The notes under the pieces are model-generated. The model ran no database searches and was not told the origin of the DNA. It was given only the letters and a program-made list of their open reading frames with translations. A program made the position numbers and the translations under genes. A DNA stretch of 64,000 nt. Source: a virus. The stretch covers positions 1 to 64,000 of IMG/VR virus record IMGVR_UViG_3300027742_000001; one strand, written 5' to 3'. Positions 17,723 to 23,141 of this stretch are shown here, piece by piece. Position 1 is the stretch's first letter. Every line of letters begins with the position of its first letter.

Positions 17723-17961
17723 ATGGATATTTTTTGTGGATATAGTTCAATTAATAGTAGACTTTATTTAGATTTTTATAAAGATACTATTACTTTATAT
17801 GATTCTTATACAGATAATTATATAGAACTTGATGAAGAGGAAATAAACTTTATTATGTATTGGTGCTTCCATAAACATAGTCTAAGAAGAGGATATACTT
17901 ATGAAAATATTGATAATGATTTTATATATTATATAGATTTATGGGACAAAGGAGATAATTA

Positions 17962-20850
17962 ATGAAAGTATTTAACACAGATGTTTTAGAGAGATGTCAA
18001 CAAGAGGGGGTTTCTCCTAATATTATTATAATAAAGAATTTTATTGGGAATAATGACCGAGGAAAGTTAACCAAATATGGTTTAGAAATGTTTAAATTCG
18101 GTATTTCTCCCAAAGAAGTTCTCTACATTAGCCTTTTTGATAAAGAAACAAAAAAGTTCGGTGTAGGGGAATTACGGGAGAGTGTTAAAGAATTAGAAGA
18201 GTTTCTAAGGGTTGTTGGTTGTAATGTCTTGGTCGATGATACTATTGGGTTTGAGAATAAAAAATATCATTCTAATTATATCTTTAGAAAATTATTAGGT
18301 AGGGATACATCTAAGTGGGAATCTAAAGGGGTTCTTGTGGATTCGTTAATTTCAGATGATTTAAAAGTTAAGATGGTTTGTGGATTACGATGGGAAACTT
18401 TAGCAAGGGAGAAAGATAGTAATATAATTATAGATAGTGAGTTTAAGTTAAATATTGATGATTTTGATATTACATTAATAAAAGATATAGATTCAGCTAA
18501 AAAGGCTTTTAAGGATATTGCAAAAAGTGAAAGGTTATATGGAGATTTAGAAACTAATAGTTTAAGATTTGAGAGAAAAGATAGTAAGATATTAACTATT
18601 GCTTGGACACCTAGACATAAACCTTTAACCTCTTATGTTTTTGCATATGAACATCCAAGTATAGATGTTTCAGATGAATATAAAAGTTTTATTACTAAAA
18701 ATATGAAAGCTATTATGACTAAAAGAAATACAGTTTATCATAATGGTCTATTTGATTTAAAATTTATTTGTAGATTCTTTGATATACACCCATTTGATAC
18801 CAATATGGATGATACTTTTGTTATTGCTAGAATTTTAAAAAATAATACCTTATCTAGTGATGAAAGAAGGGAATCTGTATCATTAAAAACTTTAGCATTT
18901 CCTTTAGTTGGGGATTGGGAAGTTCCATTAGAGAAACAAAAAGAAAGAATAATAAAAGAAAAAGGAATAAGTAAAGATGAGTTCGATTATTCTATGTATA
19001 AAGTTGAAGATTTAGTTAAGTATGCTGGAATAGACACTATTGTAATGCCTTTTGTTGATGATATGTTAAAACAATTAAACGAAGAACATCCCGCTGATGA
19101 CCCTATAAAAAATTGTTGGGAAGCTGAATGGAAAGAGGTTACTAGAGGTATTATTAAATTAATGTTAGATGGGATACCTTTAAATAGGGATGCTTGTGTA
19201 GATATGATTAAATCTTATGAAGATATATTGGATACCCACTTTAAAGTTTTACATGAGAATGATTATATTAAAAGTGTAGAGAAAATACTTAGAGCTGAGG
19301 CTATGGAAAAAGCTATGACTAAGTATAATGAAAAGGTTGACATAGCTAGACTTAAAGGTAAAGAATTTAAAGGTGTACCTCCTAATCCTGAAGAGAAAGA
19401 GAAGTATGATAGTATTGTACTAAAACCTAAGTTTAAACCTTCTAGTTCTCAACATAAGTACGTTCTAATATATGATGTTTGTAAATGTGATAACCCTATT
19501 TTAGTAGGAGAAATACATAATTCTAAGTTTAAAAAGAAAAAAACTTTTAAGAAAATAGAAGATGCTTGTAAGGAATTAAATGTTCCTGAGATGAAGCTTA
19601 GAAAATATCTAAGAGGTTTTAATAAATGTGAGATTCATAAAGGAGTTTTTGTAAGATATGAAGAGTGTACGGATACTGGATTACCTAAAGCTGATGATGA
19701 CCAATTTATTAAATATTCTAAGATGTACCCCGATAATAGTATATTAAGTATTTTTAGTGATATTGCCACTAAGAATAAAGAATTAGGGACTTATCTTAAA
19801 CCTTGGTTAGAATATGCAGATAATAGTTATGATGGTAGAATTCATGCTAATTTCTCCCCTGATACTACAAGTTTTAGGTGGGCTAGTACTAATCCAAACT
19901 TACAGCAGATACCTAAAGAAAGTAAAATTAGGTCAGTATTAGGGTATAATAAATATTCAGATAGGGTTATGATGTCCCAAGACTTTTCACAATTAGAAGT
20001 TTTGGCTAATATCAATATATGTAAAGATGAATTTAGTATTAACTTATTTAATAAAGGTATTGATGATGAGCATAGTGTAAACTTAATCAACGCATCGGTA
20101 GTGGCTGATAAATTTTCAGCAGTAAGAGGTTTAGACCCTTTAAATTTAGAACATTTGGCTTTAGTAAAGAAAGAATACGGTAGCCTTAGAAAGAAGATTA
20201 AGTCAGCTGTTACATTTCCTATGACATATTTAGCCTCACCTTTAGCTGTTAAAATGGGATTAGAGTGTTCTACTGAGGAAGCTGAAGGTATTTGGAATTC
20301 GTGGTGGGATGCACGAAAAGGATATAGAGATTGGGTTAATTTTACCTTTCAAAAATTTAAAAATGAAGGGTATTCAATCGTATTGGGAGGTTTACCTATA
20401 TTAGCTGAATACAATTATGATTTAGATAAAATAGAAACATTAGCTGAGTTAATGTCAGCAGTAGAAACTGCTAGAAAAAACAAACAACAAGATAGAGTTG
20501 ATTACTTAAAGAAAGTTGTAAGCTCTTTTAGAACTTTTGTAAATGTTCATGGACAAAGTGCCTCATTATTAACAAATCAAGGTATGTGTAGATTAATAAG
20601 GTGGTCTAGAGAGAATAATATAGATGTAAAAATGGCTAATACAGTTCACGATGATTTAATTGTGGATGTGGCTATTAAGGATTTAGATTTAGTTTGGAGT
20701 AAACAGAAAGAATTTATGACTATGGAGTATTTAGAAGACCAAGAGCTACCTATGAAAACTGATGCTGAAATAGGTAAGAGTATTCAATATGAATTAGGGG
20801 AGTACGAAGGGGAGAATAGACAGAAATTAAAAAAGGAGTTAAATATTTAA
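17962..20850 (+). CDS. Family A DNA polymerase with 3'-5' exonuclease
   Basis: Exo motifs DLET, HNGLFDL, YAGID; RWASTNPNLQQIP; motif A DFSQLE; motif B RKKIKSAVTFPMTY; motif C VHDD. Confidence 0.92.
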   Translation: MKVFNTDVLERCQQEGVSPNIIIIKNFIGNNDRGKLTKYGLEMFKFGISPKEVLYISLFDKETKKFGVGELRESVKELEEFLRVVGCNVLVDDTIGFENKKYHSNYIFRKLLGRDTSKWESKGVLVDSLISDDLKVKMVCGLRWETLAREKDSNIIIDSEFKLNIDDFDITLIKDIDSAKKAFKDIAKSERLYGDLETNSLRFERKDSKILTIAWTPRHKPLTSYVFAYEHPSIDVSDEYKSFITKNMKAIMTKRNTVYHNGLFDLKFICRFFDIHPFDTNMDDTFVIARILKNNTLSSDERRESVSLKTLAFPLVGDWEVPLEKQKERIIKEKGISKDEFDYSMYKVEDLVKYAGIDTIVMPFVDDMLKQLNEEHPADDPIKNCWEAEWKEVTRGIIKLMLDGIPLNRDACVDMIKSYEDILDTHFKVLHENDYIKSVEKILRAEAMEKAMTKYNEKVDIARLKGKEFKGVPPNPEEKEKYDSIVLKPKFKPSSSQHKYVLIYDVCKCDNPILVGEIHNSKFKKKKTFKKIEDACKELNVPEMKLRKYLRGFNKCEIHKGVFVRYEECTDTGLPKADDDQFIKYSKMYPDNSILSIFSDIATKNKELGTYLKPWLEYADNSYDGRIHANFSPDTTSFRWASTNPNLQQIPKESKIRSVLGYNKYSDRVMMSQDFSQLEVLANINICKDEFSINLFNKGIDDEHSVNLINASVVADKFSAVRGLDPLNLEHLALVKKEYGSLRKKIKSAVTFPMTYLASPLAVKMGLECSTEEAEGIWNSWWDARKGYRDWVNFTFQKFKNEGYSIVLGGLPILAEYNYDLDKIETLAELMSAVETARKNKQQDRVDYLKKVVSSFRTFVNVHGQSASLLTNQGMCRLIRWSRENNIDVKMANTVHDDLIVDVAIKDLDLVWSKQKEFMTMEYLEDQELPMKTDAEIGKSIQYELGEYEGENRQKLKKELNI

Positions 20851-20851
20851 A

Positions 20852-22003
20852 ATGAGAGAGCAAAAAGTTATAGATGAAGTTATAGAGATGAATAGTTTCT
20901 ACGATTTATCTGAATATGATTTTACATTAGGTTATGATGAAAAGTCTAAAGTTATATGTCCTAAACATGGAATCCTAAGTAGAAGATTTAGAGATTTAAA
21001 GAGAGGTCTTACTTGCGTAGAATGTAATAAAGAAAGATATGTAAATGTTCAAAGAGAAAGTACCGAAGGTTTCATAAGTAAAATTAATAAAAAATTTATT
21101 AATCATACTATTGATTGGGAAGGATTTGAATATCCAAAAATGCAACATAATAAAATAACTTTAAAATGTAAAAAGCATGGTGCATTTGAAACTACCCCAA
21201 ACAGAGCTTTAAATGTTGCTCTTTCTCCTTGTGTTCAATGTTCATGTGAAATGAGAGGAGTTAGTAATGTTGGAGACAAGAAATCTTTTTTAAAGAAAGC
21301 TAAGGAAAAGTATGGAGATAAGTATTCCTATGATAGATTAGTTTTCAAAAGGTTAAAAGATGATGTAGAGATTTATTGTAATATACATAAAGAGTATTTT
21401 ATGATAATGGCTAATAACTTTATATATTCAGCTAAGATTGGTTGTCCTAAATGTATCCAAGACAAGATTAAGGAAACACAAAGAGTAACTCAAAAGGAGT
21501 TTATTAGGAGGTGTAAAGAGACTCATGGTAATAAATTTGATTTAGGTAATGCTATATATGATGGAGGAACTAGAAAAGTAGAAGTTAAGTGTAATATATG
21601 TAATAATATTTTTTATCCAATAGCTGATAATTTCTCTAAAGGGTCAGGATGCCCCTATTGTGCGAATATATCTAAATTTAATAAATGGAAAGATGAACCT
21701 ACAAGATTATACGTATTAAGATTATACAACGGATTATATAAAATTGGAGTTACTATAAATACAGTAATCAAAAGATACCATAAAGATTTAGAGAGAGATA
21801 AGTATGAAATAATTTATGAGGAATTTTTCAAAGAAGGGAGAGAGCCTTTCAGTATTGAACAAAAAATTAGACACTTGATGTGGGAATATCATTATGAAGG
21901 GGAGAGTCCTTTTAGAGTTACAGGTACTAATGAAGTTTTCACAGTAAACCCAATAAAATATATTGAATTAGCAAAACAACAGATTAAAGGAGGCAAAAAC
22001 TAA
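20852..22003 (+). mobile_element. Free-standing homing endonuclease-like gene (Zn-ribbon repeats + GIY-YIG-like C-terminus)
   Basis: Repeated CxxH/CxxC units (CPKHG, CKKHG, CNIH, GCPYC); LYVL...YKIGVT...R...E...GTNEVF. Confidence 0.75.
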
Positions 22004-23141
22004 ATGAAACAACAAAATAATATCCAAGAAAACTTAGCTAAAGCAAATAACTTAATTAACAAAGCCCTTAAAACAAACCCTCCAAGGATTTCCTCAATAG
22101 AATTTGCAGTAGGACATTTGTTAGAAGTTATTAAAGAACTAGAATCTAAAGAAAACTTTAAGGAACAAGAGAGTATAATAAATTCTGAAAACAAAAACAA
22201 AAAGGAGAATTAAATGAAGCAATTTAAAGATAATGATGTAATATATTGGGATTATTCAGAGGAATATAAAGCAGAGTTAGCTAGTAAGTATGGTAAGGAT
22301 AGTTATCCTTATAGAACTAGAATTACAGACCATTGTTTAGATAAGATTATTATTTTTAATAGTGAGGATAATAATCTTCAAAAGGATACTTATTGGGGAA
22401 CACAAGCTACAAGAATTAATATTGATTCTTATAAGTTTACATTTAAGGTACAAGGTAATTTAGATGATTGTATAGAATTAGATAAAGCTAAATATGACTT
22501 AGAAGTTAAAAAGTACTCTTATGATAGTTTTATTGTGTTAAATATTCATAATGGATACAGATGTAGATATTTTATTAAAAAAGATGCTAAAGAAGATTTA
22601 GATACGAAGATTGAAAATACTTTAGCAGATATAAATAGAGTCAAAGCTGAGATTATTTGGCAAGAATCTAGATTAAAAGAATTGGAAAATACTTTAAAAG
22701 CTTTAAGAAAGGAGAATTAAATGGAAATATTTGGTTGGATAGTATTATTGGGGTTTACCCTATACTTAAGTGTTAATTTAGTAGGTGTTATAATATTTGC
22801 TATTGGAATGAGTGGTATGAATCAATTATCTGATAAGATTGCTAGTTTATTTTATTTAGGTATTATATGCCTTCTTTGGTATTTAGCTTATATTAATATA
22901 CCATTTGAAGTAGTATTGAAATAAGAAAGGAGAATTAATGACAGAGACAGATAAAGAACTAATATTATATGAATTAGAAGAAACATTATATCTTCTTAAA
23001 TTAATACAAAGAGATTGGTTTAGAGAACATGATGTCTATAATGGATATAAACGGTATGATATTAGAAAACAAATATCTAATTTATATAACGTAATAGATT
23101 ATTTTGGAACTTTAGAAACAGTAAATGGTAAAGACAATTAG
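22004..23141 (+). CDS. Four small hypothetical ORFs; 22721..22924 is a 2-TM membrane protein
   Basis: Coupled ORFs with RBSs; two hydrophobic segments in 22721..22924. Confidence 0.65.

What the first reader, a model, noticed from the sequence alone, without database searches (positions are those of the whole stretch)
19498..19662. NUMOD1-like HTH inserted into the PolA thumb tip
Seen: between the thumb motifs FKPSSSQH..LIYD and TDTGLPKAD, normally close together, lie about 55 extra residues: KTFKKIEDACKELNVPEMKLRKYLRG...HKGVFVRY. This follows the F.SI.EA...L.V.......L.G.....G...Y pattern of NUMOD1 DNA-binding modules of homing endonucleases. Known: T7 polymerase carries its thioredoxin-binding processivity insert in the thumb. 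Inference: a domesticated endonuclease module acting as a built-in processivity element. The frame is intact and I see no intron or intein signature.
Basis: partly seen in the sequence, partly recalled or inferred. Interest (0 to 1): 0.7.

Follow-up and report, generated by a model that had tools for sequence, protein, structure and literature searches.

The report
Endonuclease DNA-binding module in polymerase thumb
A small clade of uncultured phages has a 55-residue DNA-binding helix-turn-helix domain, of the kind used by homing endonucleases such as I-HmuI, spliced in frame into the thumb tip of its replicative DNA polymerase. It probably acts as a built-in extra grip on the newly made duplex.

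Summary
The family-A polymerase gene (window 17962-20850, 962 aa) carries 55 extra residues (511-565, window 19492-19656) between thumb helices H1 and H2. All 9 members of its clade have the segment. All 12 nearest outgroup polymerases lack exactly this segment, and a tree built with the insert removed supports one gain.

The insert folds as a beta-hairpin, helix-turn-helix, beta-hairpin module (pLDDT 83 alone, about 96 in context). Its best solved-structure matches are the three known members of one fold: the C-terminal HTH domains of I-HmuI and I-TevI, and a Paulinella protein of the same fold. A profile-profile comparison with 15 I-HmuI-type endonuclease modules gives 93% probability (P = 3.5e-7; the best of 200 shuffles scored 16.1 against 36.5). 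Pfam's own models do not reach threshold: PF22083 scores 13 bits against a 27-bit cut-off, and NUMOD1 PF07453 gives no hit.

So the "homing-endonuclease HTH" reading is supported. The T7 analogy is only approximate, because the T7 thioredoxin-binding domain sits before H1 and this insert sits after it, the site used by phiKMV-like polymerases.

The function is inferred, not shown. The net charge is +7 to +9 in every homologue, the recognition-helix arginines are invariant, and the genome has no clamp gene. Together these favour a DNA grip that raises processivity.

This is a new variant of a known kind, of moderate interest.

The parts
17962..20850 (+). Family-A DNA polymerase gene (962 aa): N-terminal domain of unknown function (residues 1-170), 3'-5' exonuclease (about 172-362), polymerase domain
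   Evidence: The context model has pLDDT 95.7 and its Foldseek top hit is Bst Pol I, E=1.9e-20.
19261..19353 (+). Thumb helix H (residues 434-464)
   Evidence: DSSP of the context model, helix 92-122 plus offset 342.
19354..19446 (+). Family-wide extended loop at the site equivalent to the T7 thioredoxin-binding domain, between H and H1 (residues 465-495). It is also present in the relatives that lack the insert.
   Evidence: The segment spanning reference residues 455-494 is 39-40 residues in 14 family members and 8-31 in most others. The T7 domain ends at the FNPS motif.
19447..19479 (+). Thumb helix H1 (residues 496-506), following the FKPSSS motif
   Evidence: It aligns with E. coli Pol I residues of about 582-593.
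19492..19656 (+). The 55-residue insert (residues 511-565): a complete homing-endonuclease-type HTH module
   Evidence: Absent from 12 outgroups and present in 9 clade members. Fold and homology evidence.
19498..19548 (+). N-terminal beta-hairpin of the module (residues 513-519 and 522-529), including the Lys-rich turn KFKKKK
   Evidence: DSSP of both models.
19555..19578 (+). HTH helix 1 (residues 532-539, IEDACKEL). A535 and L539 are invariant.
   Evidence: It aligns with I-HmuI CACEEL.
19588..19617 (+). HTH helix 2, the presumed recognition helix, plus its cap (residues 543-552, EMKLRKYLRG). L546, R547, L550, R551 and G552 are invariant.
   Evidence: It aligns with I-HmuI RGKVTDVLKG, the helix that lies in the major groove (PMC10319021).
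19630..19659 (+). C-terminal beta-hairpin (residues 557-559 and 562-566, IHKGVFVRY). V564 and Y566 are invariant.
   Evidence: It aligns with I-HmuI HHKGYTFRY.
19696..19821 (+). Thumb helices H2 (residues 579-588) and I (residues 593-620)
   Evidence: DSSP of the context model.

Best explanation
A complete beta-beta-alpha-alpha-beta-beta helix-turn-helix DNA-binding module was inserted once, in frame, into the H1-H2 loop at the thumb tip of the replicative family-A polymerase of one phage lineage. The module is homologous to the C-terminal domain of I-HmuI/I-TevI-type homing endonucleases. No nuclease part came with it. The ends of the module lie side by side in a beta stalk, so it plugs into the loop without disturbing the thumb. 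Its strongly basic surface and arginine-rich second helix sit where the thumb tip normally touches the primer-template duplex just behind the active site. The most likely role is an added, largely sequence-tolerant grip on the nascent duplex. That grip would raise DNA affinity and processivity in a phage that encodes no sliding clamp. Shown: the insertion, its site, its fold, its homology, the single gain, and the conserved length and charge. Inferred: DNA binding by the insert in this context, and the effect on processivity. I put identity and origin at about 0.9 and the DNA-grip or processivity role at about 0.5.
For: Insertion and site.
Single gain: with the insert removed, the 8 full-length carriers form one clade at 100/100 support, and the sister P0012 lacks the insert.
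Sequence: BLASTP against I-HmuI gives E=0.002 with 38% identity over 32 aa. hhalign against 15 endonuclease modules gives probability 93% and P=3.5e-7, with real score 36.5 against a shuffle mean of 9.4 and maximum of 16.1.
Function: net charge is +7 to +9 in all 9 inserts, while the whole protein is -6. Length is 54-55 aa in all. R547, R551, N554 and Y566 are invariant.
Context: no clamp family was found in the complete 91.9-kb genome.
Published background: deleting the equivalent E. coli Pol I tip (residues 590-613, sequence checked) lowers DNA binding and processivity (Minnick et al. 1996, from my own knowledge). The phiKMV insertion at the same site is described as well placed to touch nascent dsDNA (PMC10201439).
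Against: No biochemical data exist. Pfam PF22083 scores only 12.7-13.3 bits against its 27-bit cut-off, and NUMOD1 PF07453 gives no hit. The insert is more variable than the protein average: mean pairwise identity is 0.56 against 0.68, and only 21 of 182 windows of 55 aa score lower. The nearest relatives manage without the insert. dN/dS could not be computed because no DNA of the homologues could be fetched.
Confidence: 0.55

Rival explanations
1. Partner-docking platform. The basic insert binds an acidic tail or surface of another replisome protein (helicase, primase or SSB), as the basic loops of the T7 thioredoxin-binding domain do, and does not bind DNA.
For: The net charge of +7 to +9 is conserved. 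The phage encodes its own primase and two helicases next to polA. The thumb-tip region is used for partner contacts in T7 (my own knowledge; PMC10201439).
Against: Every characterised member of this fold binds DNA through helix 2. The DnaB-like helicase ends in a basic tail, KQFKRKKD, not an acidic one. No partner has been identified.
Confidence: 0.15
2. Sequence-specific targeting. The HTH keeps some endonuclease-like specificity and loads or pauses the polymerase at particular sites such as an origin, nicks or genome ends.
For: In I-HmuI this domain makes base-specific contacts (PMC10319021). The helix-2 residues R547, R551 and N554 are invariant across phages that differ by up to 46% in the whole protein.
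Against: A replicase must slide. The I-TevI HTH mainly contacts phosphates. Positions aligned to the I-HmuI base-contacting residues R149 and K151 vary here (E543; K545 is K, L or D). No candidate target site is known.
Confidence: 0.1
3. Tolerated relic. The insert is a leftover of a mobile-element insertion in a permissive surface loop. It persists because precise deletion is rare, possibly also because it destroyed an endonuclease target site, and it has no role in replication.
For: It is more variable than the rest of the polymerase. Relatives work without it. Homing endonucleases commonly lie in or beside phage polA genes, and an endonuclease-like gene abuts this polA.
Against: Length is held at 54-55 aa with one single-residue indel across branches of 0.1-0.4 substitutions per site. 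Core, turn and basic residues are invariant and net charge is conserved. The fold is confidently predicted.
Confidence: 0.1
4. Not endonuclease-derived. The insert is a generic small winged-HTH-like module that resembles I-HmuI by convergence.
For: The Pfam models stay below threshold. Individual Foldseek E-values are weak, 0.008-0.3. No donor was found in this genome or among 5.8 billion proteins.
Against: Independent lines converge on the same small family. Other HTH classes such as ArsR/SmtB score far worse, with TM about 0.35 and rmsd about 9 A.
Confidence: 0.07

Closest known systems
C-terminal HTH DNA-binding domain of HNH homing endonuclease I-HmuI (phage SPO1; PDB 1U3E; Pfam PF22083), and the equivalent domain of I-TevI
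   Different: Here the module stands without any nuclease domain and is inserted inside another enzyme's loop instead of sitting at a C-terminus. Helix 2 is more basic (K545, R547, K548, R551). The score is below Pfam's threshold.
Thioredoxin-binding domain of T7 DNA polymerase (gp5 residues 262-337)
   Same: A lineage-specific, basic insertion in the thumb of a phage family-A replicase, tied to processivity.
   Different: It lies before helix H1, not after it (PMC10201439). It is an extended loop that needs host thioredoxin, not an autonomous HTH fold. No sequence or fold relation was found.
Thumb-tip insertion of about 100 aa in phiKMV-like polymerases (cluster 13 of Czernecki et al. 2023, PMC10201439)
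   Same: Same insertion site, after helix H1. It is proposed there to contact nascent dsDNA and aid processivity.
   Different: It is about twice as long and described as several beta-strands reaching 60-70 A from the core. No endonuclease or HTH relation is reported. It occurs in a different polymerase subfamily. I did not compare the two structures here.
Paulinella chromatophore DNA-binding protein sCTP-23166 (PDB 8B6E)
   Same: Another case of the endonuclease-type HTH fold living without a nuclease and binding DNA (PMC10319021).
   Different: It is a stand-alone protein in a eukaryote, not an insertion in an enzyme.
Engineered polymerase fusions to non-specific dsDNA-binding domains (Sso7d or helix-hairpin-helix fusions; my own knowledge)
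   Same: The same proposed logic: a small dsDNA-binding domain added to a polymerase to raise processivity.
   Different: Those are man-made terminal fusions. This one is natural and internal, at the thumb tip.

Membership tests
Family-A DNA polymerase (host protein) | Pfam PF00476 over threshold, catalytic motifs A, B and C, and Klenow-like fold | tested here: met
   PF00476 scores 84 bits against a 34.3-bit cut-off. D674 (DFSQLE), R743, K747 and H896-D897 are invariant. The Foldseek top hit is Bst Pol I, E=1.9e-20.
I-HmuI_NUMOD-like domain (Pfam PF22083) | HMM score at or above the 27-bit gathering cut-off | tested here: not met
   13.3 bits with E=0.064. 12.7 bits in the genome-wide search, where it is the only match in the genome. 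SPO1 I-HmuI itself scores 77 bits.
I-HmuI_NUMOD-like domain (Pfam PF22083) | Profile-level homology to I-HmuI-type endonuclease C-terminal modules over the whole domain | tested here: met
   hhalign gives probability 93%, P=3.5e-7 and 49 aligned columns. 200 column shuffles give a maximum score of 16.1 against 36.5. An HMM built from 15 endonuclease modules scores positive on all 9 inserts, 4.5-17.6 bits.
I-HmuI/I-TevI-type HTH fold | beta1-beta2-alpha1-alpha2-beta3 topology that superposes on the solved domains | tested here: met
NUMOD1 (Pfam PF07453) | Match to the NUMOD1 HMM | tested here: not met
   No match at E<=10 in the insert or anywhere in the genome. Predicted structures of proteins named NUMOD1 do resemble the insert, TM 0.60-0.68.
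Homing endonuclease (as a functional element) | A nuclease domain (HNH, GIY-YIG, LAGLIDADG and so on) attached to the DNA-binding module | tested here: not met
   The insert is 55 aa and consists only of the HTH module. The flanks are thumb helices H1 and H2.
T7-type thioredoxin-binding domain | Insertion between helices H and H1, directly before the FNPSS motif | tested here: not met
   T7 residues 262-337 end at FNPS. This insert begins 20 residues after the FKPSS motif, beyond H1. PMC10201439 states that the T7 domain precedes H1.
Intein or group I intron | Hint-domain splicing blocks and size above about 130 aa, or a structured intron RNA | tested here: not met
   55 aa with an HTH fold. 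There is no Rfam intron match in 17900-22100. The reading frame is continuous.
Processivity-conferring thumb insertion (functional class) | Measured gain in processivity or DNA affinity that depends on the insert | not testable with these tools
   This needs biochemistry. Only indirect support exists: position, charge and conservation.

The most novel reading that the evidence does not exclude
The endonuclease-derived HTH keeps real sequence preference and makes this replicase a site-directed polymerase, loaded or paused at specific phage sequences such as an origin, nicks or terminal repeats. That would be a replicative family-A polymerase with a built-in sequence reader.
Probability: 0.1. 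Interest if true: 0.8.

Novelty: new variant of a known kind. Interest (0 to 1): 0.5.

Why it matters
Lineage-specific thumb insertions are a known way for family-A polymerases to gain processivity. Examples are the T7 thioredoxin-binding domain, the phiKMV insertion and Pol theta insert 1.

This one has an identifiable origin: a DNA-binding module of selfish homing endonucleases, reused by the very class of gene that such endonucleases usually parasitise. I found no description of such a case. Three targeted full-text searches returned nothing relevant, and the 2023 family-A reclassification paper contains neither "HTH" nor "homing".

If the DNA-grip role holds, it is a natural counterpart of engineered polymerase fusions such as Sso7d. 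It would also offer a compact 55-residue cassette, with a defined graft site, for raising the processivity or salt tolerance of Bst- or Klenow-type enzymes.

Tried and rejected
No DNA or gene neighbourhoods of the homologues could be fetched, so there is no dN/dS.
- Scans of IMG/VR, JGI metagenomes and GTDB genomes found only distant polymerases and no member of the clade.
- The insert alone gave no tblastn hit in 50,697 phage records.
- It gave nothing meaningful against PDB sequences.
- It gave no useful ESM Atlas lead.
- Among 5.8 billion proteins it matched only its own polymerase clade.
- There is no paralogue or possible donor in the 91.9-kb genome. The endonuclease-module HMM hits only the polymerase there.
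- A search for I-HmuI C-terminal relatives in the big protein set gave only 2 proteins, so I built the comparison set from phage records instead.
- Sub-range syntax for protein ids is not accepted. Pfam scans of the homologues' inserts were therefore left out, because I did not type the sequences.
- I tested whether the insert marks the SPO1 I-HmuI intron site. It does not: the SPO1 intron splits the conserved P-N-x-Q motif about 80 residues downstream of the thumb tip.
- Intron and intein readings are rejected (fold and size).
- GC content of the insert (about 25%) is close to that of the flanks, so there is no sign of recent foreign DNA.

Full report
**What is there**

The finding lies in one long ORF, window 17962-20850 (+), 962 aa. 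It is a family-A DNA polymerase with a 3'-5' exonuclease domain. PF00476 scores 84 bits, PF01612 scores 35 bits and phrog_17 gives E=2e-59.

The polymerase is far from any cultured phage enzyme, at about 22% identity. The window belongs to a complete 91.9-kb virus record with direct terminal repeats and 27% GC. The gene sits in a replication module with a primase, two helicases, a dNMP kinase, exonucleases and SbcCD-like genes.

**Is it an insertion?**

A search of 5.8 billion proteins found eight close relatives (52-80% identity over residues 400-700; 60-83% over the whole protein). All of them carry the segment. It also found P0012 (about 44% overall), which lacks exactly this segment.

A profile search of 1.84 billion representatives added the next relatives, P0019-P0025, P0030, P0032, P0033 and P0038. 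All of them also lack it. They read ...LGL(K/P) followed directly by ...T-D-x-G.

In a 76-sequence alignment the tip segment is 15 residues long in 50 polymerases and 9-23 residues in 67. It is 69-70 residues only in this clade.

A maximum-likelihood tree built after removing the insert places the eight full-length carriers in one clade at 100/100 support. P0012 is its sister, nested among insert-less polymerases. One gain is the simplest history.

**Where in the polymerase?**

An AlphaFold2 model of residues 343-962 (76-row alignment, mean pLDDT 95.7) gives the following elements:
- helix H: residues 434-464
- a long loop: residues 465-495
- helix H1: residues 496-506
- the insert: residues 511-565
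- helix H2: residues 579-588
- helix I: residues 593-620

Against E. coli Pol I the insert falls between K597 and K600, in the middle of residues 590-613 (LFEKQGIKPLKKTPGGAPSTSEEV). From my own knowledge (Minnick et al. 1996), deleting this tip lowers DNA binding, processivity and frameshift fidelity.

The T7 thioredoxin-binding domain (residues 262-337) ends at the FNPS motif, so it lies before H1. Czernecki et al. 2023 say the same. They add that the roughly 100-aa phiKMV insertion follows H1 and is well placed to touch nascent dsDNA (PMC10201439). This insert therefore shares the phiKMV site, not the T7 site.

**What is the insert?**

- *Fold.* Modelled alone with the clade alignment it has pLDDT 83. 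Its topology is beta-hairpin, helix, turn, helix, beta-hairpin.
- *Foldseek against the PDB.* I-HmuI (1u3e) ranks first, with probability 0.92, TM 0.61 and 27% identity. Other HTH classes have TM of about 0.35.
- *Predicted viral structures (BFVD).* The top 50 are mostly HNH, GIY-YIG or 'homing' endonucleases and NUMOD1-named proteins. None is named a polymerase.

At the sequence level the evidence is as follows:
- BLASTP of the insert against SPO1 I-HmuI gives E=0.002 with 38% identity over 32 residues.
- I collected 15 I-HmuI-type C-terminal modules from phage records without reference to the insert.
- An HMM built from these modules scores positive on all nine inserts.
- hhalign of the two profiles gives 93% probability and P=3.5e-7 over 49 columns.
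- 200 column shuffles average a score of 9.4 with a maximum of 16.1, against 36.5 for the real alignment.
- Shared motifs are PI.V, AC.EL, L.G and HKG...RY.

Pfam's own models are not satisfied. PF22083 scores 12.7-13.3 bits against a 27-bit cut-off, although it is the only match in the genome. NUMOD1 PF07453 gives nothing. I therefore call the insert a divergent homologue of the I-HmuI-type HTH. It is "NUMOD1-like" in fold, not a Pfam NUMOD1 member.

**Origin**

No donor could be found:
- There is no paralogue in the genome.
- There is no similar sequence outside the polymerase clade.
- Composition matches the flanks.
- The site is not the SPO1 intron site, which splits the P-N-x-Q motif further downstream.
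- There is no intron RNA, and the segment is too small and has the wrong fold for an intein.

**Likely function (inferred)**

- *Length.* It is held at 54-55 aa in all nine proteins.
- *Invariant residues.* N511, K527, A535, L539, L546, R547, L550, R551, G552, N554, V564 and Y566 are invariant. These are core, turn and helix-2 basic positions.
- *Charge.* Net charge is +7 to +9 in every insert, while the whole protein is -6.
- *Helix 2.* It aligns with the I-HmuI helix that lies in the major groove.
- *Clamp.* No clamp family was detected in the genome.

These points favour an added grip on the duplex behind the primer end.

Three things count against a firm conclusion. The insert is somewhat more variable than the protein average (0.56 against 0.68 mean pairwise identity; 21 of 182 windows score lower). 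The nearest relatives lack it. I had no model coordinates to check which way helix 2 faces.

Partner docking, site-specific targeting and a tolerated relic remain open.

**Verdict**

The endonuclease-HTH reading is supported, with a corrected family label and a corrected comparison to T7. The function is plausible but untested. I found no published description of this arrangement. It is a new variant of a known kind.

Noticed in passing
window 20852-22003 (+): The gene that starts 2 nt after the polA stop encodes a 383-aa endonuclease-like protein (phrog_681 E=1e-43, DUF723, repeated Cys-pair zinc-ribbon-like units, weak MUG113/T5orf172-like C-terminus). It is probably a free-standing homing endonuclease. 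It has no I-HmuI-type HTH.
   Followed up: partly
window 19354-19446 (residues 465-495): The whole polymerase family, including the relatives without the insert, has an extended basic loop of about 30 extra residues between helices H and H1. This is the position of the T7 thioredoxin-binding domain. The thumb here therefore carries two separate elaborations.
   Followed up: partly
window 19480-19488 and 19666-19668 (C507, C509, C569): Cysteines flanking the base of the insert (CKC before it, C in EEC-TDT after it) appear together with the insert in 8 of 9 carriers and are absent from all outgroups. P0011 keeps only C569. They could form a disulfide or metal site at the stalk base.
   Followed up: no
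window 17962-18471 (residues 1-170): The N-terminal domain of the polymerase, about 170 residues, has no Pfam match. It is conserved across the family and is its most variable part (mean pairwise identity 0.53).
   Followed up: no
protein P0095, thumb tip: A distant family-A polymerase carries an unrelated, Lys-rich insertion of about 34 extra residues at the same H1-H2 site. This suggests the tip is a recurrent insertion hotspot.
   Followed up: no
window 1-38000, + strand: Many genes end in ...KGDN, ...KEN or similar because the Shine-Dalgarno sequence of the next gene lies inside the last codons. Of 68 ORFs of 60 aa or more, 21 have an SD-like motif in the last 15 coding bases and an ATG at or overlapping the stop.
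   Followed up: partly
L075 (Bacillus phage Goe26), L083 (Goe19), L089 (SPO1): I-HmuI-type endonuclease genes lie directly in or before polA in several SPO1-like phages. The SPO1 intron interrupts the conserved P-N-x-Q motif of the polymerase, not the thumb.
   Followed up: partly
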